Shown: positions 6,299 to 64,000, counted from the first letter of the stretch. The stretch: DNA of 64,000 bases from a virus (IMGVR_UViG_3300035210_000190), one strand, 5' to 3'. Notes: generated by a model from the letters alone, not told the origin. A program made the numbers and translations.

Positions 6299-6565
6299 AT
6301 GCCCCGCACATCAGAAGACGCTTTTCAAAACAGTCAGCACTACAGCATTTGTGACAATACTGGTTTTGTTGAGGCTAATGCTAGCTTCATTTACCGTGGG
6401 CACTTGATTTCGTTCTCGACTATCGGTTATAATAAGCCGATTCAGCAGAACCATGTTTTGGTTATCGGTAGCAATGGTAACAGCGACATTATCAAAGAGT
6501 TTGATAGCGTCGAATCCGCCATCGTCAACATCAATAGCTGGTTGAGCAATCATAATCCGAGCTAA
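6299..6565 (+). CDS. hypothetical protein
   Basis: ORF with upstream TGaTATGAT promoter. Confidence 0.55.
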   Translation: MPRTSEDAFQNSQHYSICDNTGFVEANASFIYRGHLISFSTIGYNKPIQQNHVLVIGSNGNSDIIKEFDSVESAIVNINSWLSNHNPS

Positions 6566-6594
6566 TCAGCAATCATTTTCTTAGGAGACTTATC

Positions 6595-7356
6595 ATGCTT
6601 CGTAACGTAACCATTCAGGGCCGATACATTGAAGGCACTTGGCTGCTTTTGGAAACATTCAATGAGTTGACTGAATACATGGAGTTCACTTCGGGCCGTG
6701 TTGTTCAGCAAATTACTCGCCTGTTGAGAAGCAAGGTTGGCCCTGAGCGGTGGGATCATATGATCACTCGCACACCAGAAGGCAGTATCTTGGCGGCTTC
6801 CATCATCTATTGCCAAGCCCACGGCAAAAGCCCATTGATTGAAATGGACGGAATCATTCAGCAAAAGTTTTTGAACATGGCTAATAATATTTCCCAAGGC
6901 AAAAAGCTTCTGGTTAACCCGTTGGGTGGCTATTGCTACATGACAGACGATATTTCCATTCTGTCGGAAGAAGCCTTTGAAACAGGCTTTCAGTTGACTT
7001 ACACCGTCAATGAAAACACTCAATATATCAATCTGGAAAATGATCCAGAACTGGAAGAACGCACACGCCAGTATTTGGGTGAACGAGATCCGAATTACTC
7101 TTATATCTTGAACCTTCACAAGTTCAGTAAAGACGATTTGATCAAGGTATTCACTGAATTCAAAGAAAATGGCGGTTCGATTGTTCATGTCTACACCACG
7201 GGCACCAACGTGCCACAAATGTATGAATACTTTGACGCGGCCAAAGAAGCTGGCTTGAATGACTTTGTGTTTGAATTCAATGCAGGCACTGAAAACGGTA
7301 TTGCAGAGTTCATCAATCATATCAAACCATTGTGCAACCTTAGTTTGGTAGAGTGA
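6595..7356 (+). CDS. hypothetical protein
   Basis: ORF, RBS GGAGAC. Confidence 0.65.
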   Translation: MLRNVTIQGRYIEGTWLLLETFNELTEYMEFTSGRVVQQITRLLRSKVGPERWDHMITRTPEGSILAASIIYCQAHGKSPLIEMDGIIQQKFLNMANNISQGKKLLVNPLGGYCYMTDDISILSEEAFETGFQLTYTVNENTQYINLENDPELEERTRQYLGERDPNYSYILNLHKFSKDDLIKVFTEFKENGGSIVHVYTTGTNVPQMYEYFDAAKEAGLNDFVFEFNAGTENGIAEFINHIKPLCNLSLVE

Positions 7357-9239: not shown

Positions 9240-9313
9240 GGCTGTTTGTAGTTCAGTCGGCAGAACTCCGTCGAAAAACGGTAGTCGTGGGTTCGAATCC
9301 CATCATACAGCCT
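9240..9313 (+). tRNA. tRNA-like gene with atypical anticodon arm (4-bp stem, 6-nt loop CGAAAA); identity undetermined
   Basis: acceptor stem, D-arm GTTC/GAAC, canonical T-arm GTGGGTTCGAATCCCAT; co-transcribed with basic peptide gene; terminator at 9320-9350. Confidence 0.5.
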
Positions 9314-11669: not shown

Positions 11670-13240
11670 ATTGTAAATAACCCCGACCTGAAGGACGGAG
11701 CTTTTGTTTTTCTAGAAGCCAAAATTAGTGTGTAAACACTCTAATCTTATTTTCTTGGGGCAGTTTACTATGCCTCTACTGGCTTCTTCGAAATATTGAT
11801 CTCTCCACATTTCAAAATCACCTTTACTTTTTAACCATTTTCTCAATATATTCCCTGCTCCATTCACATCTGCATTTAGCAACTTTCCTAATGAGGATTT
11901 GAACAATCCTCTTTTGGATCTTGTTCCTAAATAGCTCTTATGTTTTTTAACTTCTTCTAAATCTAAAAAGCTTGTTTTTGAAGTATATGATTCTTCATGT
12001 TTAGCAAAAAGCAAACCTTTACTTTTAGCTTTATATTCAAGCATGTTTTTAAATTTAAAAAATGGGACAGATACAAAACTTTGATTATTAACAGACCCAA
12101 TATTGATGGATTGTTTCTGTTCTTTATTTTCACCAACTAGTATGGTGTTGAGATTGTTTTTCAAACAATACTCCACAATATAATTAGTTGATCGATGATA
12201 ATAATCGTTGATTTTGTTGGTTCTATTACGAGATAGTTTGTTTTTCTTTTTAATCATAGCACTAACATCTTGGTTATTGTTTCGACCAAGATCTATTTTA
12301 CTTGATAATTTAGCGACTTTCTTATTATACCATTGGTTTAGGGATTTTAGATAACGCCCATCAAGGAGGATGGACGAACCATTGGTGGAATTAAGGCATG
12401 CACCTAAATTATTCAAGCCAAGGTCAATGGAAAGATAACGACCGTTATCTTCCATTGCCTTATCTTCTTCAACTTCATAGACTACTTCTACTTTAAATTC
12501 TTCTCCATTACTTTTAGGCAAGATACGCACTTCGTTTATCTTTTTTATATGTTTTGGAATTGAAATTTCAAGTTTAGTAAGTAAATGAGGATATTCTTTT
12601 TTAAAGTTCTTTGAACAATTAATAACAACTCTATTAACAGTATCTTTTTCTAGTTCTGTTTTATTTTTAACAAATCGAACACTACGCCCTTGAATAACGA
12701 TATTGGAATAGGTTGGTTTATCTTTTTTTCGATTCTTCTTGTATCGTGGTAAATTAATGGTGTTGGTTTTGTTTACTGACTTTTTAGCTTTCAAACTACC
12801 AAAGAAAGCCTTCATATCTGAGTAGGCCACTCTTCTTATTTGTTGAGAACAATCATTCAGTAACAATGAAAAGTTCTCATTAAGTTTAGTGGCATGATAG
12901 AGTTCAGTATCAGAAGGCATTTTTTCTTTGTTGAAGAAAGCTTGACGTAAAGGATATAAGCAAACATTATACATTTGAGAAGCATGGACAGAGAGCATTT
13001 GAACTAATTCTTTTTCTTCTGGGCTAAACGATTTACACCACATAGAAAGTGTGCGTAAATATTTAACTCTTTTTTTAGATTTATTAGCCATAACACTCCA
13101 AAAGCCAACTAATAAAATAGTTGACTAAAATATGGTTATTAGTATACAATATAAAACTTAAAAGTCAACTATAATGAGTTGGCAAAAAAACAACCCTATT
13201 CCTCCCCTGCCTGAAGGAAGAGGTATCCAAGGGTTTAACT
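11670..13240 (-). mobile_element. tnpB-only IS200/IS605-family element (IS1341-like) with similar imperfect hairpins at both ends in direct orientation; boundaries approximate
   Basis: TnpB ORF flanked by CCCCGACCTGAAGGACGGAGC (11681-11701) and CCTCCCCTGCCTGAAGGAAGAGG (13200-13222), plus 86-bp imperfect palindrome 13104-13190. Confidence 0.6.
11712..13091 (-). CDS. tnpB: TnpB (IS605 OrfB-family RuvC-like RNA-guided nuclease/transposase accessory protein)
   Basis: RuvC-I IDLGLNNLGA, RuvC-II ESYTSKTS, RuvC-III NADVNGAGNI motifs; 459 aa. Confidence 0.85.
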   Translation of the reverse strand: MANKSKKRVKYLRTLSMWCKSFSPEEKELVQMLSVHASQMYNVCLYPLRQAFFNKEKMPSDTELYHATKLNENFSLLLNDCSQQIRRVAYSDMKAFFGSLKAKKSVNKTNTINLPRYKKNRKKDKPTYSNIVIQGRSVRFVKNKTELEKDTVNRVVINCSKNFKKEYPHLLTKLEISIPKHIKKINEVRILPKSNGEEFKVEVVYEVEEDKAMEDNGRYLSIDLGLNNLGACLNSTNGSSILLDGRYLKSLNQWYNKKVAKLSSKIDLGRNNNQDVSAMIKKKNKLSRNRTNKINDYYHRSTNYIVEYCLKNNLNTILVGENKEQKQSINIGSVNNQSFVSVPFFKFKNMLEYKAKSKGLLFAKHEESYTSKTSFLDLEEVKKHKSYLGTRSKRGLFKSSLGKLLNADVNGAGNILRKWLKSKGDFEMWRDQYFEEASRGIVNCPKKIRLECLHTNFGF

Positions 13241-22416: not shown

Positions 22417-22489
22417 CAGTTGACGCTTTTGTAAAAAATCTATATAATAAGGGAGATCTTCGGATCTCCTTTTTTTTGAGATTGAAATT

Positions 22490-23752: not shown

Positions 23753-23774
23753 GTCGATATTGATATAATTACTC

Positions 23775-23826
23775 CATCGAAGCAGCAAGGGGCGAGCAAG
23801 CCAATAAGCCTTTCCCCTTGCAGTTG
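23775..23826 (+). promoter_or_regulatory. conserved GC-rich leader hairpin (CAAGGGGcgagcaagccaataagcctttCCCCTTG) downstream of promoter; second copy 54697-54748
   Basis: ~50-nt element about 85% identical at two loci, each between a TATAAT and an AAGGATAC RBS. Confidence 0.55.
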
Positions 23827-23863
23827 CTCATTCGACCTTAATTGATACGAGAAGGATACGACC

Positions 23864-33832: not shown

Positions 33833-34954
33833 ATGTCCAGCATCTTCCCCCGTATTGAAACCCTTGATGATATGATTCCTCATATCAAAGACCGTGCCTA
33901 TATTTCTCTTAACAAACAGGATAACGGTGCCGACATCGTTTGCTACAACATCAGCAACGGTGACTCTTTCAACACTCCGGTTGAAAAGGAAGCTCGCGGT
34001 ATTACCTTTGACGACAACGGTAAAATACTGTCGCGTCCATTGCACAAATTCTTCAACTTGGCAGAGCGTGCAGAAGTCCAGCCAGCCGTTTTGGATTGGA
34101 ACACTATGGTTGCCGGGTTTGATAAAATGGATGGCTCCATGATTACCACAGGGCTGTTCAAAGGCGAATTCTTTGCTAAGTCCAAGAAGTCTTTCAAATC
34201 GGATGTGGCTGTTTCGGCAGAAGGCTTTGTGTCTCGTAACCAGAAATACTACGAGTTCACCAAATATTGCTCTCAGGCCCAACTGACGCCAATTTTTGAA
34301 TTCACTTCGCCAAAGCATCGTATCGTTTTGCGTTATGACGAAGACAACATGACATTGCTTCATGTTCGTCACAACATCACAGGCGATTACTTAATGCCTG
34401 CTGAAAAAGACCAACTGGCGTTGTTGTTTGATATTCCTGTTAACAAGCCACTGTTTGGTGAAGAATTTGATTTGGCTTCCCTGTTGAAGTCGCTGAACAC
34501 GGTTGAAGGGATTGAAGGCTATGTTATTCAATTCGTTAACGGTAACATGATCAAAATCAAAACCAAATGGTATATGAATCTCCATCATGCGGTTAGCTTT
34601 GTTCGTGAACGTGATATTGCTCGTTTGGTGGTCGAAGAAAAACTTGATGATTACATTGCTTATTTGTCGCTAAACTCGCCAACGGCTGATTTGAGTGAAA
34701 TTTATCGTATCAATGACGCTATCAAAGCTTCGATTGAAGCGTTGTCGAAAGAGGTTGATGATATTGCTGCTGCATTCCAAGGTGTTGACGTGAAAACTGC
34801 AGCAATCCAACTCAAAGGCCACAAACACTTTGGTTTTGTTATGGGGGCAATTCGTGGTCACAAAAACGACTACCTGTATCACTACTCTAAAAACCATCTG
34901 GTGGATTGGTCGTTGGACCAAATTGAGCTTGGCGACTTGTCCGCTCCCGTTTAA
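33833..34954 (+). CDS. RNA ligase, Rnl1 family (divergent paralog A)
   Basis: KFFNL, nucleotidyl-lysine motif DKMDGSM, EGYVIQFVNGNMIKIKTKWYMNLH matching T4 Rnl1 motifs. Confidence 0.8.
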   Translation: MSSIFPRIETLDDMIPHIKDRAYISLNKQDNGADIVCYNISNGDSFNTPVEKEARGITFDDNGKILSRPLHKFFNLAERAEVQPAVLDWNTMVAGFDKMDGSMITTGLFKGEFFAKSKKSFKSDVAVSAEGFVSRNQKYYEFTKYCSQAQLTPIFEFTSPKHRIVLRYDEDNMTLLHVRHNITGDYLMPAEKDQLALLFDIPVNKPLFGEEFDLASLLKSLNTVEGIEGYVIQFVNGNMIKIKTKWYMNLHHAVSFVRERDIARLVVEEKLDDYIAYLSLNSPTADLSEIYRINDAIKASIEALSKEVDDIAAAFQGVDVKTAAIQLKGHKHFGFVMGAIRGHKNDYLYHYSKNHLVDWSLDQIELGDLSAPV

Positions 34955-35912: not shown

Positions 35913-37046
35913 ATGGAGATTCACATGACTTATCAACAAGAACTGTATGCCCAACTGATGAACCTGTTGGTTACTAATCCGGGGTCTTTTAAATACCGTG
36001 ATGAAATCTCGGCGGTAGACGGTGGGACTTACCGTGTCTTCAACTATGACATTCCAAAGCACTCCGAATTCAAACTTCCGGGTGCCAAGGATTGCCGTGG
36101 AGTCATGTTCTACATGGGCGGTTCTGAGCCAATGCTGGTGGCATTGCCAATGCAGAAATTCTTTTCCTTGGGCGAAACCCCTGAAACGCAAAAGGTGAAG
36201 CCAGAAGAAGCCGACCACGCTTATCTGAAACCCGATGGCTCGTTGCTCACCAGCTATATTTCTCCGATCAATAATACTCTTTACTACAAGAGTAAAAAGA
36301 AGCCTACGTTTGCTGATTACGGCCTTGTTGAACAGTCTATCAGTCCAGAATTGCACGCAGACGTTGAACGGCTGACCCGCACAGGTGTTTCGGTTGACTT
36401 GGAACTGACCACGCCGAAAAACCGTGTTTTCATCGAATACACTACCTACGAAGTTCATGTGTTGAAAGCCCGCGACATGAACACAGGGGCTTATGTGGAC
36501 ATTCGTTCGGCAGAATTTGCCGCAGAATATCCGGTTATTGCGGCCCATTTGGTGAAACGTATCCCTATCAATGAACTCAACGTTAATGACCCTGAAATTG
36601 AGGGTTATGTGGTTGAATTTGGCCCTGACATGTATAAGGTCAAGACCATTCCTTACCTGAAAATGTCGGCAGTGGTTAACATTCAGGATCGTTCGAAGGA
36701 ACGTCAGGTTATTTATGAAGCAACTCTTCATGAAATTCTGGATGAAATTCGTTCGCTGTATCATTACCGGACACACAGCGACAACTTCCCACTGGCTGAA
36801 ATTCTGGCTCGCTTGGATGAAGTCGAAGACTACGCCCGTAAAAGCTACCATTACCTTGTTCGCACGGTTGATAGCTTCCACGATGAGCATAAAGGTTTGG
36901 AACGTGGCGATTACGCTCGTAAAGCCAAAGAAGTGGCTCCATTGCTTCTGTCGGTGTTGATGAGCAAGTTTTCGGGTGACGAGATTGATTACAAACAAGC
37001 CGCTATCATGGTGTTTGCTCGTAAACAAGTGCCTATCCCCGAGTAA
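35913..37046 (+). CDS. rnlA: RNA ligase 1 (T4 Rnl1-like; likely start 35925)
   Basis: TYRVFNY, DCRGVMFYM, QKFFSL, LKPDGSLL (lysine motif I), EGYVVEF...YKVKT match T4 Rnl1. Confidence 0.85.
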   Translation: MEIHMTYQQELYAQLMNLLVTNPGSFKYRDEISAVDGGTYRVFNYDIPKHSEFKLPGAKDCRGVMFYMGGSEPMLVALPMQKFFSLGETPETQKVKPEEADHAYLKPDGSLLTSYISPINNTLYYKSKKKPTFADYGLVEQSISPELHADVERLTRTGVSVDLELTTPKNRVFIEYTTYEVHVLKARDMNTGAYVDIRSAEFAAEYPVIAAHLVKRIPINELNVNDPEIEGYVVEFGPDMYKVKTIPYLKMSAVVNIQDRSKERQVIYEATLHEILDEIRSLYHYRTHSDNFPLAEILARLDEVEDYARKSYHYLVRTVDSFHDEHKGLERGDYARKAKEVAPLLLSVLMSKFSGDEIDYKQAAIMVFARKQVPIPE

Positions 37047-51938: not shown

Positions 51939-52010
51939 GGGCCGGTGGTGTTTAACGGGAACAAGTGTCCTTAACCGGATGAGTTCTGGGTTCGAGTCCC
52001 AGTCGGTCCT
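51939..52010 (+). tRNA. tRNA-like gene, atypical anticodon arm (5-bp stem with two G-U pairs, 6-nt loop UUAACC); monocistronic with own promoter and terminator
   Basis: acceptor stem GGGCCGG/TCGGTCC, D-arm TGTT/AACA, canonical T-arm CTGGGTTCGAGTCCCAG; terminator 52029-52053. Confidence 0.5.
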
Positions 52011-52149
52011 CCTAATTTAAAATACAGATAAACCGCCTTCTTGGCGGTTTTTTGTTTTAACACTTTTGAATAATAATCATTTTTCACTACCAGTATTATA
52101 GACAACAAAAAGCCCGCTTCTGCGGGCCTTTTATATTACTGTTGGAAAA

Positions 52150-54632: not shown

Positions 54633-54775
54633 ATGGTCTTTTGCTATAAAAAGCTTGTTTTTAAAGATTTACCTTGATATACTAACCATGTTGAAGCGGC
54701 AAGGGGCGAGCAACCCATTAAGTCTTTCCCCTTGTTAATGCTTACTTATTATAACCATTTAAAAGGATACAAAAC

Positions 54776-58897: not shown

Positions 58898-58982
58898 GCC
58901 CGAGTGGTGGAATGGTAGACACGGGAGACTTAAAATCTCCTTTCCTTCGGAAGTGCCGGTTCGAGTCCGGCCTCGGGCACCA
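58898..58982 (+). tRNA. tRNA-Leu (anticodon UAA), type II with long variable arm, CCA encoded
   Basis: acceptor GCCCGAG/CTCGGGC, anticodon stem GGAGA/TCTCC loop CTTAAAA, T-arm CCGGTTCGAGTCCGG. Confidence 0.85.
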
Positions 58983-60745: not shown

Positions 60746-61354
60746 ATGAGCGATCTCATTATTCCTGACCATGTATTGGCGTCAGCCGAATCTTTTTTAG
60801 AAAAAGAAGCCTTTTTCTTTCAGGATCGTGTGAGTGCTGTATTTAAGCCGATGAGAATGGCTTATGATGATGTTGGCTGTTATTGTGTCATTACTATGCA
60901 GAATGGTGATGAGCGATTTTTTGATAGTTATCCGGCACTTAATAAAGTTGTTCGAAATAGAGTGCCAATTTCTATAAAAGAAGGAAAAAAAAGAATTCCT
61001 TATGCTATTGATTTGAACACCATCAATAGTTCAATAAAACTGAATCATAGAAACCTTTACCGTAATAATTTGTGGTTTGAATTTACTGGCAATGATTTAA
61101 ATAAGGTAATACTCAATCAATCTATTACACCAGATGGTTCAGAGGATGTTATTTACTTGTTATATTCTGATGCATTGCATCGTCAATTTAATTTAAATGA
61201 TAGCAATAGTGCTGCTTTTTATGTTTTCAATCATTTAATGACGCACACTCATTTGAAAGAGATTTTGCCAGAAGAAGATTACTTTTCTCAGTTTAAACAT
61301 TTTTTAAAGAGTGACATTGCTCATGTTGAACTCTTGAAAATGTATTCAATATAA
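60746..61354 (+). CDS. hypothetical protein
   Basis: promoter TGCTATAAT; RBS AGAGGTG. Confidence 0.6.
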   Translation: MSDLIIPDHVLASAESFLEKEAFFFQDRVSAVFKPMRMAYDDVGCYCVITMQNGDERFFDSYPALNKVVRNRVPISIKEGKKRIPYAIDLNTINSSIKLNHRNLYRNNLWFEFTGNDLNKVILNQSITPDGSEDVIYLLYSDALHRQFNLNDSNSAAFYVFNHLMTHTHLKEILPEEDYFSQFKHFLKSDIAHVELLKMYSI

Positions 61355-61433
61355 TCTTATATTCGTTGAAAAAACAATAAAAAAGTGATAAAATACACCC
61401 TTAGAAAATCCATCTATTACATTTGAGGTTATC

Positions 61434-61778
61434 ATGGTCGAAATTACAGTATCTCCGTCTGACATGGTTTTTGTTAATGATGCAGCCAATGAGTTGGAAG
61501 CTACTTTTTCTGATCTGTCTGGTCGATTGGTCGAAGATAAGCCCGGTGATTTTAAAGTAGCTTGCTTTCAAGTTGCTTATGAAATCCATGTAAAACTGGG
61601 AACCAACCAGTTTGCTGTTTATAAACTCTTGCGTGATCGTATTTTGCATAGTTCTATGTCTGATGTTATTGAGGAATATAATATCTTGAACAGTGTTTAT
61701 ATTCTGGGTATTAAAGAAGCATCTGAGCGATTTAACAACATCTTGGCCGATTTCAAGAGTAAACGTGAGATAGCTTGA
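61434..61778 (+). CDS. hypothetical protein
   Basis: RBS GAGGT. Confidence 0.6.
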   Translation: MVEITVSPSDMVFVNDAANELEATFSDLSGRLVEDKPGDFKVACFQVAYEIHVKLGTNQFAVYKLLRDRILHSSMSDVIEEYNILNSVYILGIKEASERFNNILADFKSKREIA

Positions 61779-61829
61779 TTTAAAAATGTCTTTTATGGTA
61801 TAATTAAACTCTACTAATGGAGATCTATC

Positions 61830-62018
61830 ATGAAGTTCACACCAAATTCTCAAATTTATGTCAATGGTCTTGGTGCATGGTTTCGCATTATTGACCAAAC
61901 TGATGAAAAAGTTCGGCTGGTGGACTGTGAAGGTCATTCAAAGTGGGAATCCAAAGCAGAAATCGAATCGTGGATGAATAAAAATGAACCTTCTCTTTGC
62001 ACGGATGGTGACCTCTAA
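61830..62018 (+). CDS. hypothetical protein
   Basis: RBS GGAGA. Confidence 0.55.
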   Translation: MKFTPNSQIYVNGLGAWFRIIDQTDEKVRLVDCEGHSKWESKAEIESWMNKNEPSLCTDGDL

Positions 62019-62155
62019 TGTGCAAGCCTTTTGAGTGGTTCTCAGTTGAAGCTTTTCCATTATGGCTTGTTGGCTCTTTCGGCTTGTGTATGATTCTTTT
62101 CATGGTGGCTTCGATGATTGAATATCATGTTAAATATGAACGAGTGGCGGGTTAA
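62018..62155 (+). CDS. 45-aa membrane peptide, translationally coupled (TAATG)
   Basis: stop-start overlap; single TM helix. Confidence 0.4.
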   Translation: MCKPFEWFSVEAFPLWLVGSFGLCMILFMVASMIEYHVKYERVAG

Positions 62156-62267
62156 GTTGTTTTGAAGTTTTTTGAAAAAAAATGATTGACCGATAAACCG
62201 CTTCTTGATATACTTATCCCATCAAAACGAAACAACACAAACAAACTAATAGGTTAGGAGATACAAA

Positions 62268-62402
62268 ATGCAAGGCTCTTTCGGTGACGCACAAGAACGT
62301 TTTCGTGGTGGCAAGAAAAAAGACAACGAACAAGCGAAGTATCACAAAAAAGATAGCGAGTTTCGGAAGCGTCGCCGGAATCGCCATCAAGACGCAGAGT
62401 AA
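62268..62402 (+). CDS. 44-aa basic peptide, copy 3 of 3
   Basis: MQGSFGDAQERFRGGKKKDNEQAKYHKKDSEFRKRRRNRHQDAE; RBS AGGAGA. Confidence 0.6.
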   Translation: MQGSFGDAQERFRGGKKKDNEQAKYHKKDSEFRKRRRNRHQDAE

Positions 62403-62515
62403 AATCCTGTAAAAAAGGCATCCGAGAGGGTGCCTTTTTTGTTTCCATTATAAAAATAGATTGCTTTGAAATCTGTTTTTTGTTATACTGTCACATCAAT
62501 TAAAAAAGGTGACAT

Positions 62516-62899
62516 ATGAAAAATGTTATTGTCTTTAAAGAGAGTTTTGGAAACGACATCCATCGAGTTTATCAATTAGACAGTAAACAGTCGTTCTATG
62601 ATTCTCTTACCGAGGAAGGTAAGGGCTTTTCGGTAGCCACCACAAATCAATATCCTCACTTATTTACGTTCTTTGATACCGTTGCAGACGCAGAAATGTA
62701 CATCAAAGAAAAACATGCTGGTGTGGTTGTTGACAAGTCAGAAGCTGATGTGTTTTGCCCTAAATGCAATCGCGGGTATATGGCGTGTGACCATTCAGAT
62801 TTAGAAGTCTTTTGGTCGTATAAAAAAACGTGTGCCTGCGACCACACATTCAAAATTGAAGGTCGCCAAATCATCTTGTATAACGTAGTGTCAGATTAG
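62516..62899 (+). CDS. hypothetical Cys-containing protein
   Basis: MotA-box-like GATTGCTTTG 22 nt upstream of TATACT; CPKC...C.C.H. Confidence 0.6.
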   Translation: MKNVIVFKESFGNDIHRVYQLDSKQSFYDSLTEEGKGFSVATTNQYPHLFTFFDTVADAEMYIKEKHAGVVVDKSEADVFCPKCNRGYMACDHSDLEVFWSYKKTCACDHTFKIEGRQIILYNVVSD

Positions 62900-62924
62900 T
62901 TTCATTAAAACAGGAGGACTGAAT

Positions 62925-63278
62925 ATGACTAAGAAAAAAGTAAAAGAAATCGAAGTCGATGAAAAATCACCAGATTTTATTGCCTTTGTGAAGCAGTTTA
63001 ACTACCGAATGAGCAAGGATAAGAAATATTTCTACATGAAAGTTACCAGTTCTTCCATTGCTGATGAAGCTGTTGCGAAACCGCCACATTATGAAATCAC
63101 GCTGGTTTTGTTTCCTGATAGTTCGTTGGCGAAGTTTTTGGAAATTGCTGAAGAAATTTATAACAAAGGTCAGGCTTGTATAGATGAAGTTCAAGACTAC
63201 TATGATACTCACTATCCAGAGTACAACTTTACTATTAAGTTTGTTGACTTGTATCGAATTTATTTAAAGCACATTTAA
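62925..63278 (+). CDS. hypothetical protein
   Basis: RBS AGGAGG. Confidence 0.6.
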   Translation: MTKKKVKEIEVDEKSPDFIAFVKQFNYRMSKDKKYFYMKVTSSSIADEAVAKPPHYEITLVLFPDSSLAKFLEIAEEIYNKGQACIDEVQDYYDTHYPEYNFTIKFVDLYRIYLKHI

Positions 63279-63324
63279 AAAACTGTTTTTTGTTAAATCC
63301 ATTGTAAGTGGCTCAGTATTTTGC

Positions 63325-63625
63325 TATACTGCAGTCACTTAACTAAAACGAGTAAAAGCCTTCTGGGTGTATTCTTCTATTCATGTCCACATGACCAACG
63401 AAGATGGCTTGATTATTGGTTTTGTTGAGCGTAAGCCAGTTCCTCAAAACATCTAAAATTTGTTGACATTTCAAGCTTCTTGTTATATTATTAGCGTCCT
63501 CCTCGGGCTTTAGTAGGTGATGTTGACCTCGCAACAATTCCAGCGGGCATACAGTGGAATCGAAACGCTGTATACACCCAAAGGGAAGCAATAACAAAAA
63601 GAGATCTTCGGATCTCTTTTTTGTT
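63325..63625 (+). ncRNA. candidate non-coding RNA: promoter (TTGCTATACT) to terminator with no + strand ORF; 5'/3' long-range complementarity
   Basis: 63361-63373 CTTCTGGGTGTAT pairs with 63565-63581 ATACACCCAAAGGGAAG; terminator GAGATCttcgGATCTC+T6 at 63600-63625; only minus ORF starts with TTG inside terminator. Confidence 0.4.
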
Positions 63626-63685
63626 GTCTAAAATTCTTAATTTTGTTATACTGTGTATCTATCTTAATGACCTATTCGGTGATTT

Positions 63686-63892
63686 ATGAAAATTCTTCAG
63701 GCAATCAAAAGTTTCTTCATTGAACTTAATCGTGTTTCCACCTACAACATCGCTTACGAAGCTTTGGAGCGTATCAAGAATTACAAAGAAATCATGGCGA
63801 ATGGCACACCAGAAGAAAAGAAAGCCGCTCGCTTGAAAAAGCGGGTTGAAACCAAGGCACGACTCAAATGTTATCGTAATATGAGTGCTTAA
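63686..63892 (+). CDS. hypothetical basic protein
   Basis: promoter TGTTATACT; ORF. Confidence 0.55.
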   Translation: MKILQAIKSFFIELNRVSTYNIAYEALERIKNYKEIMANGTPEEKKAARLKKRVETKARLKCYRNMSA

Positions 63893-63967
63893 ATTTAAAA
63901 AACATTGATAATGTGTTCATTTTTTGATATAATGGACACCTTCCCGAACAGAATAAGGTAACATAAA

Positions 63968-64000
63968 ATGAAAGAAGTATGCAAAGAAGATGGCGTAATG
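63968..64000 (+). CDS. 5' end of a gene truncated by window edge
   Basis: promoter TGATATAAT at 63925; RBS AAGGTAA. Confidence 0.4.
   Translation, partial: MKEVCKEDGVM

What the first reader, a model, noticed from the sequence alone, without database searches (positions are those of the whole stretch)
63325..63625. Promoter-to-terminator unit with no ORF and 5'/3' end pairing
An extended -10 promoter (TTGCTATACT) and a strong terminator (63600-63625) bracket ~280 nt lacking any plus-strand ORF. The ends can pair (CTTCTGGGTGTAT with ATACACCCAAAGGGAAG) and internal hairpins are present (GGCTT...AAGCC). The only ORF (minus strand) begins with TTG inside the terminator and lacks promoter and RBS.
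Basis: seen in the sequence. Interest (0 to 1): 0.55.

Follow-up and report, generated by a model that had tools for sequence, protein, structure and literature searches.

The report
Truncated gene plus conserved small RNA
The "ORF-less unit" is two things joined together: the leftover 3' end of a small gene that lost its start in a recent 162-bp deletion, followed by a separate, conserved ~128-nt small-RNA gene of unknown function that has its own strong promoter and matches no described RNA family.

Summary
The promoter, the terminator and the lack of a plus-strand ORF are all real, but this is not one RNA gene.

**First half (63349-63456).** This is the last 35 codons of a conserved 85-aa gene. 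Five sister contigs carry the gene intact behind the same promoter. The window and one other contig lost the ribosome-binding site, the start codon and 50 codons in a 162-bp deletion between 9-bp direct repeats (CGAGTAAAA).

**Second half (63463-63622).** This is an independent cassette. The best sigma-70 match in the area (TTGACA-17-TATTAT) is followed by about 100 nt with no conserved reading frame and then a UUCG-loop terminator. Relatives keep this cassette with or without the 85-aa gene, in a long form (~130 nt) or a short form (~60-70 nt).
- The RNA body is better conserved than the neighbouring coding sequence.
- A central hairpin keeps its loop AAUCGAA while 7 of its 11 base pairs change on both sides.
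- Every form keeps an accessible CCUC motif near the 5' end.

It is at chance level and is not conserved.

**Best reading.** A new small non-coding RNA family in an uncultivated phage-like element, possibly pairing with ribosome-binding sites. The function is inferred, not shown. Interest is modest.

The parts
63302..63330 (+). Promoter P1 of the 85-aa gene, which is now truncated: -35-like TTGTAA and extended -10 TGCTATACT. Start of transcription is inferred at about 63337.
   Evidence: 9 of 12 positions plus TG. In L001, L002, L003, L005 and L006 the same promoter lies directly upstream of an intact 85-aa gene.
63349..63357 (+). Deletion junction: the single remaining copy of the 9-bp direct repeat CGAGTAAAA.
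   Evidence: L001 has two copies (6425-6433 and 6587-6595). Window positions 63279-63357 align to L001 6355-6433 and 63349-63690 align to 6587-6928, a 9-nt overlap and a 162-bp gap.
63349..63456 (+). 3' remnant of the 85-aa gene (codons 51-85, RVKAFWVYSSIHVHMTNEDGLIIGFVERKPVPQNI, plus stop). It has no ribosome-binding site and no start codon.
   Evidence: It is 100% identical to the intact allele in L002, L003, L005 and L006, so the deletion is recent.
63463..63491 (+). Promoter P2 of the small RNA: TTGACA, 17 nt, TATTAT. It can also be read as the extended -10 TGTTATATT (63481-63489). It begins 7 nt after the remnant's stop codon.
   Evidence: 11 of 12 positions, joint best match in 61000-64000. 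The -35 and -10 are kept while the spacer diverges in all relatives that carry the cassette.
63494..63595 (+). Body of the candidate small RNA (long form). The 5' end is inferred to lie at 63494-63498.
   Evidence: No Rfam match. Body identity to diverged relatives is 75-81%, against 49-57% at third codon positions of the adjacent gene. No frame is conserved.
63497..63504 (+). 5' CU-rich motif UCCUCCUC, which resembles the anti-Shine-Dalgarno sequence. CCUC is the only body motif shared by the long and short forms.
   Evidence: Invariant TCCTCCT in 9 long-form variants. In the short forms CCUC is the loop of the 5' hairpin. Predicted probability of being unpaired is 0.38-0.88 (long) and 0.75-1.0 (short).
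63516..63522 (+). Invariant GGUGAU(G): a Shine-Dalgarno-like sequence that abuts GTG, ATG and TTG codons. A 24-25 codon open frame runs from here to TAA 63592-63594.
   Evidence: The predicted peptides differ between clades because of 1-nt indels. In clade B the frame runs through the terminator.
63538..63586 (+). Central hairpin. Outer helix: UUCC with GGGA. Middle helix: GG with CC. Inner stem: 63547-63557 with 63565-63575. Conserved loop: AAUCGAA (63558-63564).
   Evidence: In the inner stem 7 of 11 pairs change on both sides (0 of 500 shuffles reach this). G-U pairs mark the plus strand as the folded one.
63596..63622 (+). Intrinsic terminator shared by P1 and P2 transcripts: AAAAAGAGAUC-UUCG-GAUCUCUUUUUU. 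It is symmetric and so potentially works in both directions.
   Evidence: It is 91-100% identical in all relatives. Similar copies occur elsewhere in the genome (22453-22478; L001 8591-8667).
63624..63652 (+). Promoter of the next gene (68 aa, 63686-63892). It shows that the downstream gene does not depend on P2.

Best explanation
The interval is a composite of two unrelated parts.

1. Gene remnant (shown). P1 used to drive an 85-aa gene. A slippage-type deletion of 162 bp between two copies of CGAGTAAAA removed 12 nt of the 5' leader, including the weak ribosome-binding site, together with the start codon and codons 1-50. That leaves an untranslatable 3' remnant at 63349-63456.

2. Small-RNA cassette. 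Seven nucleotides after that gene's stop codon begins a self-contained cassette. It has a strong promoter P2 (63463-63491), a ~100-nt body without a conserved reading frame, and a UUCG-loop terminator. Together they would give a ~128-nt RNA, and P1 transcripts would also carry it as their 3' end. I read this as a functional small non-coding RNA of a new family in an uncultivated phage-like element.
- Shown: conservation, no conserved frame, and covariation in the central hairpin.
- Inferred: that it is transcribed, where its ends lie, and what it does.

The mechanism I think most likely is a trans-acting base-pairing RNA. Its accessible CCUC/UCCUCC motif would pair with GAGG/GGAGG ribosome-binding sites of host or phage mRNAs and block translation initiation. 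The AAUCGAA hairpin of the long form would be a second recognition or protein-binding module. This step carries roughly 0.3 confidence on its own.
For: Deletion:
- Five contigs with an identical neighbouring gene carry an intact 85-aa ORF behind the same promoter. The window and L004 lack exactly 162 bp, flanked by the 9-bp repeat, and the rest is 100% identical.
- The protein is conserved at 58-100% identity in 8 clusters.

The cassette is independent of the 85-aa gene:
- L173 and L188 have the cassette right after the upstream 119/115-aa gene, with no 85-aa gene.
- L145 has the 85-aa gene without the cassette.

Promoter: the -35 and -10 are kept across diverged spacers.

Selection on the RNA body: identity is 81%, 75% and 73% (A-B, A-D, B-D). 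The adjacent gene shows 76%, 67% and 66% overall, and 57%, 49% and 50% at third codon positions.

Not coding:
- 1-nt indels shift the frame between clades.
- A versus D differences fall 7:4:9 over the three codon positions, counted by hand from the sequences.
- Clade B reads through the terminator.

Structure:
- In the inner stem 7 of 11 pairs change on both sides. The covariation score is 0.527 against 0.214 in shuffles (0 of 500 reach it), and slid controls give at most 0.21.
- The model-fitted alignment also exceeds all shuffles on score.
- 1-3 G-U pairs per sequence in clades A, B, C and D would be mismatches on the other strand.

The CCUC motif is invariant and predicted to be accessible in all 13 variants.
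Against: - There are no expression data. The start of transcription and the ends of the RNA are inferred from consensus matches only.
- There are only four diverged long-form clades, and most compensatory changes sit in one lineage (G).
- With five sequences the covariation was not significant, and RNAalifold's covariation term was +1.2.
- The body folds no better than shuffled sequence.
- A CCUC seed is short and would match very many ribosome-binding sites. No specific target was found and there was no seed-target covariation.
- An invariant Shine-Dalgarno-like GGUGAUG, with an open frame that ends 1-8 nt before the annotated terminator (63596) in three of four clades, leaves room for a translation-dependent role.
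- The short forms lack the central hairpin, so that hairpin is not essential to the cassette.
Confidence: 0.6

Rival explanations
1. Non-functional relic. The P2-to-terminator cassette is what is left of another small gene cassette (promoter, leader, ribosome-binding site, start codon, a few codons, terminator) after an internal deletion, just as happened to the 85-aa gene next door. It persists only because it is harmless.
For: The same locus shows that such deletions occur. The long form has a Shine-Dalgarno-like GGUGA followed by AUG, and an open frame ending just before the terminator. The short forms look like still shorter remnants. The body is not unusually stable.
Against: The body is more conserved than the neighbouring coding sequence and much more than its third codon positions. 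The hairpin stem covaries around a fixed loop. The short-form hairpin keeps its CCUC loop through a compensated base-pair insertion and G-U/A-U exchanges (read by eye). The promoter is maintained in every lineage.
Confidence: 0.12
2. Cis-acting leader. The RNA modifies RNA polymerase or the terminator so that transcription from P1 and P2 reads through into the downstream genes. This would work like lambda nut/boxB or HK022 put sites, or through ribosome occlusion of the terminator by the mini-ORF, whose stop codon lies 2 nt before the terminator stem.
For: The element is promoter-proximal, has a conserved hairpin with a fixed loop and variable stem, and lies upstream of a terminator and same-strand genes. 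The mini-ORF stop is at 63592-63594 and the stem starts at 63596. In clade B the frame runs through the terminator.
Against: The next gene always has its own strong promoter about 25 nt after the terminator. That gene differs between relatives (a 68-aa or a 55/57/59-aa gene) while the cassette stays the same. I saw no sequence in the body complementary to the terminator's 5' arm, so no alternative anti-terminator helix (by eye). The spacing between GGUGA and the start codon is poor and the start codons vary.
Confidence: 0.13
3. Translated micro-ORF or translation-dependent RNA. This would be either a 23-25 aa peptide or a CreT-like RNA that acts by engaging ribosomes or tRNAs.
For: Invariant GGUGAU, with ATG in 8 of 9 variants. 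The frame is open to a stop just before the terminator in clades A, D and G. RNA toxins built from a minimal ORF are known (abstract of bioRxiv 10.64898/2026.06.02.729485).
Against: The peptides are unrelated between clades: A/D have FQ[RK]AY[SG]GIETLY and G/B have TFVTIP. There is no excess of third-position change. Clade B has no stop before the terminator. The short forms have no plausible ORF. The Shine-Dalgarno-like sequence abuts the ATG.
Confidence: 0.08
4. One reading: a single ~290-nt structured non-coding RNA running from P1 to the terminator and closed by 5'/3' end pairing. A variant of it is a type I antitoxin-like RNA controlling the 85-aa gene through that pairing.
For: P1 transcripts must run through to the same terminator, so a ~290-nt species probably exists. 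The 13-bp interaction is -18.9 kcal/mol in this lineage.
Against: The 5' half is coding-derived and 100% identical to the intact gene. The pairing is at chance level and is lost in clades B, C and D. Gene and cassette occur independently of each other. The pairing would compete with the covarying central hairpin.
Confidence: 0.03

Closest known systems
Small RNAs made from the 3' end of an mRNA with their own internal promoter (DapZ/MicL-type architecture; recalled from general knowledge, not tested by homology)
   Same: In the intact allele the RNA's promoter starts 7 nt after the stop codon of the upstream ORF. There is no terminator in between, and mRNA and small RNA share one terminator.
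   Different: The cassette also occurs without that upstream gene (L173, L188). So it is a free-standing module rather than a derivative of one mRNA. There is no sequence relationship, and the setting is a phage-like element.
Firmicute base-pairing small RNAs with C/U-rich motifs in loops that pair with ribosome-binding sites (RsaE/RoxS, RNAIII hairpins, SprX, LhrC; from general knowledge)
   Same: Own promoter and intrinsic terminator, no conserved ORF, and a short conserved pyrimidine motif (CCUC/UCCUCC) predicted in a loop or single-stranded 5' end.
   Different: No Rfam family matches. The motif is CCUC rather than UCCC/CCCC. There is a single copy of the motif. No target has been identified. 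The host is unknown.
Phage- and prophage-encoded small RNAs (the lambda sRNAs OOP and PreS, DicF, AsxR, VpdS and others; review PMC12197685)
   Same: A short non-coding transcript encoded among phage-type genes and plausibly acting after transcription.
   Different: The described examples are mostly antisense RNAs or Hfq-dependent RNAs of temperate phages of Gram-negative bacteria. This one has no antisense partner in the 64-kb window and belongs to an uncultivated lineage with no match in the INPHARED GenBank phage records, IMG/VR or the PLSDB plasmid collection.
Lambda nut boxB and HK022 put antitermination RNAs (from general knowledge)
   Same: A promoter-proximal hairpin with a conserved loop and variable stem, upstream of a terminator.
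   Different: The terminator is followed at once by another promoter. No boxA-like element was identified. The short forms lack the hairpin.

Membership tests
Any Rfam 15 family | Covariance-model score at or above the family's gathering threshold | tested here: not met
   only three tRNAs in the whole window; at E up to 10, the best hits in 63200-63750 are partial matches to the terminator (E = 0.17-7, 13-19 bits against thresholds of 40-98).
Truncated gene / pseudogene (first half, 63349-63456) | Collinear, in-frame homology to an intact conserved ORF, with loss of start codon and ribosome-binding site | tested here: met
   a 162-bp deletion between CGAGTAAAA repeats. The remnant corresponds to codons 51-85 of an 85-aa protein conserved in 8 clusters.
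Independent small-RNA gene | Own promoter and own intrinsic terminator, both conserved | tested here: met
   (11 of 12 promoter positions; terminator). (kept in all relatives that carry the cassette). This is sequence-level evidence only; transcription was not tested.
Independent small-RNA gene | No conserved reading frame on either strand | tested here: met
   1-nt indels between clades, unrelated predicted peptides, and read-through of the terminator in clade B.
Independent small-RNA gene | Conserved secondary structure supported by compensatory changes | tested here: met
   This is met for the central hairpin. In one search, 7 of 11 pairs change on both sides and 0 of 500 shuffles reach that. 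One search also exceeds all shuffles on score. The 5' helices are inconclusive because all their pairs are invariant.
Base-pairing small RNA with an anti-Shine-Dalgarno seed | Conserved, accessible pyrimidine-rich seed | tested here: met
   CCUC is present in all 13 variants. Probability of being unpaired is 0.38-0.88 (long form) and 0.75-1.0 (short form).
Base-pairing small RNA with an anti-Shine-Dalgarno seed | An identified target whose pairing is conserved or covaries, and regulation of that target | tested here: inconclusive
   the neighbouring gene's ribosome-binding site is AGGAGGAC, an 8-nt match in this lineage, but it does not covary with the seed in relatives; 46 of 110 crude ORFs have GGAG/GAGG-type sites, so the match is not specific. 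Regulation cannot be tested here.
Type I toxin-antitoxin pair (85-aa gene plus RNA) | Obligate co-occurrence and conserved RNA-mRNA complementarity | tested here: not met
   L145 has the gene only. L173 and L188 have the RNA only. Complementarity is lost in clades B, C and D.
Protein-coding micro-ORF | Conserved frame and peptide, with excess of synonymous change | tested here: not met
   A versus D differences by codon position are 7:4:9, counted by hand from the sequences.
nut/put-type antitermination element | Makes RNA polymerase resistant to downstream terminators | not testable with these tools
   Only the architecture could be compared. The own promoter of the downstream gene argues against it.

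The most novel reading that the evidence does not exclude
The long and short cassettes are alleles of one phage 'module' whose only shared content is a strong promoter, an exposed CCUC(C) that copies the 3' end of 16S rRNA, and a terminator. On this reading it is an abundant decoy that competes with ribosomes for Shine-Dalgarno sequences and reshapes translation globally. The long form adds a second module: its invariant loop GGAAUCGAAAC is complementary to a common tRNA T-arm sequence (GUUCGAUUCC, recalled from memory), in an element that also carries two T4-type RNA ligases and its own tRNAs.
Probability: 0.07. Interest if true: 0.7.

Novelty: new member of a known kind. Interest (0 to 1): 0.35.

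Why it matters
If the cassette is expressed, it adds a new structured small-RNA family to a completely uncharacterised group of large phage-like elements. Almost nothing in the window has a database match. The family comes in long and short alleles, which gives a natural experiment on which parts matter.

The finding also carries a practical lesson. 'Promoter to terminator without an ORF' can arise overnight from a microhomology deletion, so comparison with sister genomes is needed before calling an RNA gene.

The biological payoff is limited until a target or phenotype is known. Phage-encoded regulatory RNAs are an established category.

Tried and rejected
- **Rfam:** gathering and permissive searches found nothing.
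- **Public collections:** the INPHARED GenBank phage records searched with DNA at near and distant settings and with proteins, IMG/VR searched with the two flanking proteins, and the PLSDB plasmid collection all gave no relatives.
- **Genome-contig scan:** I used a 15-mer, which was too short. All 120 listed hits look like chance, and the single scan was wasted.
- **IMG/VR 17-mer scan:** two hits, both unrelated coding sequence.
- **Metagenome pattern scan:** 29 hits, of which only L173 is real.
- **Covariance model R1** searched over the window and 18 loci: no extra copies. The three hits at E = 0.33 are noise.
- **Long-range duplex between the 85-aa gene and the RNA:** no better than shuffles.
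- **Target by seed/ribosome-binding-site covariation with neighbouring genes:** none.
- **P2 leader as a duplicate of another promoter-leader in the window:** no similarity above background.
- **AAUCGAA loop pairing with the element's own tRNAs:** their T-loops are TTCGAAT, TTCGAGT and TTCAAGT, not TTCGATT. The six TTCGATT sites in the window show no pattern.
- **CRISPR-repeat mimic (anti-CRISPR RNA):** GTGGAATCGAAAC recalls the 3' end of type I-C repeats from memory. There is no repeat-like hairpin upstream and the host's arrays are unknown, so I dropped the idea as unsupported.
- **Function of the 85-aa protein and its neighbours:** no Pfam hit and no credible PHROG hit. The best is a holin family at E = 0.02.
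- **MAFFT and model-fitted alignments** placed clade G's hairpin one column out of register. I re-did the count on an ungapped alignment anchored on the loop.

Full report
**1. The observation**

- There is an extended -10 promoter, TGCTATACT, ending at 63330, with a -35-like TTGTAA 17 nt upstream.
- There is a terminator at 63596-63621 (11-pair stem, UUCG loop, six T). It is symmetric, so it is called on both strands.
- Between the two, no plus-strand ORF exceeds 35 aa. The longest ORF is the minus-strand TTG ORF 63343-63597.
- The whole unit folds with z = -4.05. That score comes from the terminator. The 102-nt body without it gives z = -0.84, and two relatives give -1.23 and -0.80.
It matches 11 of 12 consensus positions, tying for the best match in the 3-kb region scanned.

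**2. The first half is a freshly truncated gene**

The element has no match in the INPHARED GenBank phage records or IMG/VR. An exact-protein look-up of the upstream 117-aa gene found six metagenome contigs.
- In five of them (L001, L002, L003, L005, L006) the same promoter drives an 85-aa ORF. The window and L004 lack that ORF.
- BLAST shows window 63279-63357 aligning to L001 6355-6433, and 63349-63690 aligning to L001 6587-6928. This is a 162-bp deletion whose ends are two copies of CGAGTAAAA, one of which remains at 63349-63357.
- The deletion removed 12 nt of the leader, the start codon and codons 1-50.
- What remains (63349-63456) is codons 51-85 plus the stop. It is 100% identical to the intact allele, so the event is recent.
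- The protein is real. Eight sequence clusters share 58-100% identity, with an invariant core VKAFWV...DGLIIGFV. No Pfam or credible PHROG match exists.

**3. The second half is a separate, conserved cassette**

Seven nucleotides after the stop codon lies promoter P2, then about 100 nt, then the terminator. I collected relatives through homologues of the 85-aa and 117-aa proteins and one metagenome pattern scan.
- All relatives but one carry a cassette at this position with the same -35 (TTGAC[AT]), the same -10 region and a nearly identical terminator.
- The long form (~130 nt) occurs in four diverged clades: A (window, L001-6), B/C (L007, L173, L143), D (L140, L187) and G (L175, L177, L179).
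- Short forms (~60-70 nt) occur in L009-L017, L141, L142, L181-186 and L188.
- The cassette is independent of the 85-aa gene. L173 and L188 have it directly after the upstream gene with no 85-aa gene, and L145 has the 85-aa gene without it.
- A covariance model of the long form finds no further copy in the window or in 18 loci.
- No Rfam family matches.

**4. Is it functional, and at the RNA level?**

*Conservation.* Body identity is 81% (A-B), 75% (A-D) and 73% (B-D). The adjacent 85-aa gene shows 76%, 67% and 66% overall, and 57%, 49% and 50% at third codon positions. That is not what a decaying relic should show.

*Coding.* A 24-25 codon frame runs from GTG/ATG at 63517/63520 to TAA at 63592.
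- Clades B and G have 1-nt insertions relative to A and D.
- The predicted peptides are unrelated: A/D have ...FQ[RK]AY[SG]GIETLY..., and G/B have ...TFVTIP...
- In clade B the frame runs through the terminator and the next promoter.
- By my count from those sequences, A versus D differences fall 7:4:9 over the three codon positions. That shows no coding signature.
- The same indels break any minus-strand frame.

*Structure.* All single-sequence folds and RNAalifold predict the same central hairpin.
- With five sequences the covariation support was weak.
- Clade G then showed a stem of almost entirely different sequence around the same loop. It has AAUAACCUGUG-AAUCGAA-CACAAGUUAUC, against GCAUACAGUGG-AAUCGAA-ACGCUGUAUAC in clade A.
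- On an ungapped, loop-anchored alignment, 7 of 11 pairs change on both sides. The covariation score is 0.527 against 0.214 ± 0.063 in shuffles, and 0 of 500 shuffles reach the observed value on four of five measures. Slid controls give at most 0.21.
- The model-fitted 9-sequence alignment also beats all shuffles on score, even though clade G is misregistered there.
- The 1-3 G-U pairs per sequence in clades A, B, C and D would be A-C mismatches on the other strand. The plus strand is therefore the folded one, and a DNA palindrome is unlikely.
- Caveat: there are effectively four lineages, and most double changes are in one of them.

*Shared core of long and short forms.* Apart from promoter and terminator, the two forms share only CCUC near the 5' end.
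- In long forms it is part of an invariant UCCUCCU, 3-10 nt from the inferred start.
- In short forms it is the 4-nt loop of a 5' hairpin. The stem of that hairpin varies (CUGUU/GACAG, CUGUU/GACGG, CUGUU/AACGG, CUGUUU/AGACAG) while the loop stays fixed (read by eye).
- Its predicted probability of being unpaired is 0.38-0.88 in long forms and 0.75-1.0 in short forms.

**5. The end pairing**

The 13-bp interaction exists in this lineage (-18.9 kcal/mol). Its gene-side arm is coding sequence for KAFWVY and is constrained for that reason. Its RNA-side arm is the 3' strand of the covarying hairpin.
- In clades B, C and D the best local duplex is only -8.3 to -12.3 kcal/mol, with different partners.
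- A perfect inverted repeat of at least 9 bp appears in 14.5% of shuffles.
- Whole-length duplex energies are no better than shuffles.

I treat it as fortuitous.

**6. How it most likely works**

*Shown:* the composite anatomy, the deletion, the independence and conservation of the cassette, the lack of a conserved frame, and the covarying hairpin.

*Inferred:* P2 fires and the terminator stops, giving a ~128-nt RNA. P1 transcripts (the 85-aa mRNA in intact genomes, a ~290-nt non-coding RNA here) carry the same sequence as their 3' end. That is the layout known for small RNAs derived from 3' UTRs with their own promoter.

The most economical mechanism is base pairing of the exposed CCUC/UCCUCC with GAGG/GGAGG ribosome-binding sites, as in Gram-positive small RNAs with C-rich loops.
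- This element's own genes use such sites heavily: 46 of 110 crude ORFs. The neighbouring 117-aa gene has AGGAGGAC, an 8-nt match.
- There is no covariation with any candidate target.
- The motif is too short to be specific on its own.
- I put about 0.3 on this mechanism and about 0.7 on 'some RNA-level function'.

Rivals are a relic of a deleted gene, a cis-acting read-through element, and a translation-dependent micro-ORF. Each is set out with its evidence in the rival-explanations section.

**7. Comparison with known systems, and novelty**

By architecture it resembles free-standing or 3'-UTR-type base-pairing small RNAs and the growing list of phage-encoded small RNAs (review PMC12197685). 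It is not a member of any curated family, so it would be a new family of a known kind.

The carrier is itself obscure.
- It has two T4 Rnl1-like RNA ligases. The first is 41% identical to a Ralstonia jumbo-phage protein.
- It has tRNAs and a TnpB.
- It has dozens of one-gene cassettes, each with an extended -10 promoter.
- Yet relatives lie on contigs of 0.77-1.9 Mb. 'Phage' should therefore be read as 'phage-like'.

**8. Verdict**

This is an ordinary truncated gene joined to a credible but uncharacterised small-RNA cassette. Interest is 0.35.

Noticed in passing
window 23761-23860 and 54675-54775: Two paralogous promoter-proximal leaders share GAAGCrGCAAGGGGCGAGCAAsCCAwTAAGyCTTTCCCCTTG, a hairpin CAAGGGG...CCCCTTG. 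Each lies between an extended -10 promoter and a ribosome-binding site plus ATG. This may be a second conserved RNA element (cis leader) of this genome. It was not reported in the gathering-threshold Rfam scan.
   Followed up: partly
window 11712-13091 (-); L177 1938-3317: A 459-aa TnpB (OrfB_IS605 plus Cas12f1-like TNB domains) sits in the window. In relative L177 a 459-aa protein with the same two domains is inserted right after the 55-aa gene, about 400 nt downstream of the small-RNA cassette. IS605-type elements are therefore mobile within this lineage.
   Followed up: no
window 9242-9312 and 51939-52012: ARAGORN calls two tRNA-like genes with an undetermined anticodon ('???'). The first also scores 44 bits with the Rfam tRNA model and has an odd anticodon loop (CGAAAAA). 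Normal tRNA-Leu(UAA) and tRNA-Met(CAU) lie at 58898 and 59248.
   Followed up: no
window 33833-34954 and 35913-37046: Two tandem T4 Rnl1-type RNA ligase genes. The first is 41% identical to a protein of Ralstonia jumbo phage RsoM2USA. Together with the tRNAs they suggest an RNA-repair or anti-anticodon-nuclease capacity.
   Followed up: partly
relatives L010, L007, L173; clusters P0009, P0016: Close relatives of this region lie on contigs of 773 kb, 835 kb, 1.84 Mb, 1.86 Mb and 1.92 Mb from independent assemblies. The element may therefore be an integrated or cellular region (or a chimeric assembly) rather than a free phage. L188 has a PAS/MCP chemoreceptor gene next to the cassette region.
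   Followed up: no
window 63596-63621, 22453-22478; L001 8591-8667: Nearly the same terminator-plus-promoter junction (AAAAAGAGATCTTCGGATCTCTTTTTTGTTG...TGnTATAaT) is reused at several gene boundaries. Repeated junctions and short repeats such as CGAGTAAAA probably drive the cassette gain and loss seen between relatives.
   Followed up: partly
window 62268-62402 and about 54780: A very basic 44-aa ORF (MQGSFGDAQERFRGGKKK...) has a paralogous start (ATGCAAGGTTCTTTCGGTGACGCA) downstream of the second leader hairpin copy. This points to a small duplicated gene family.
   Followed up: no
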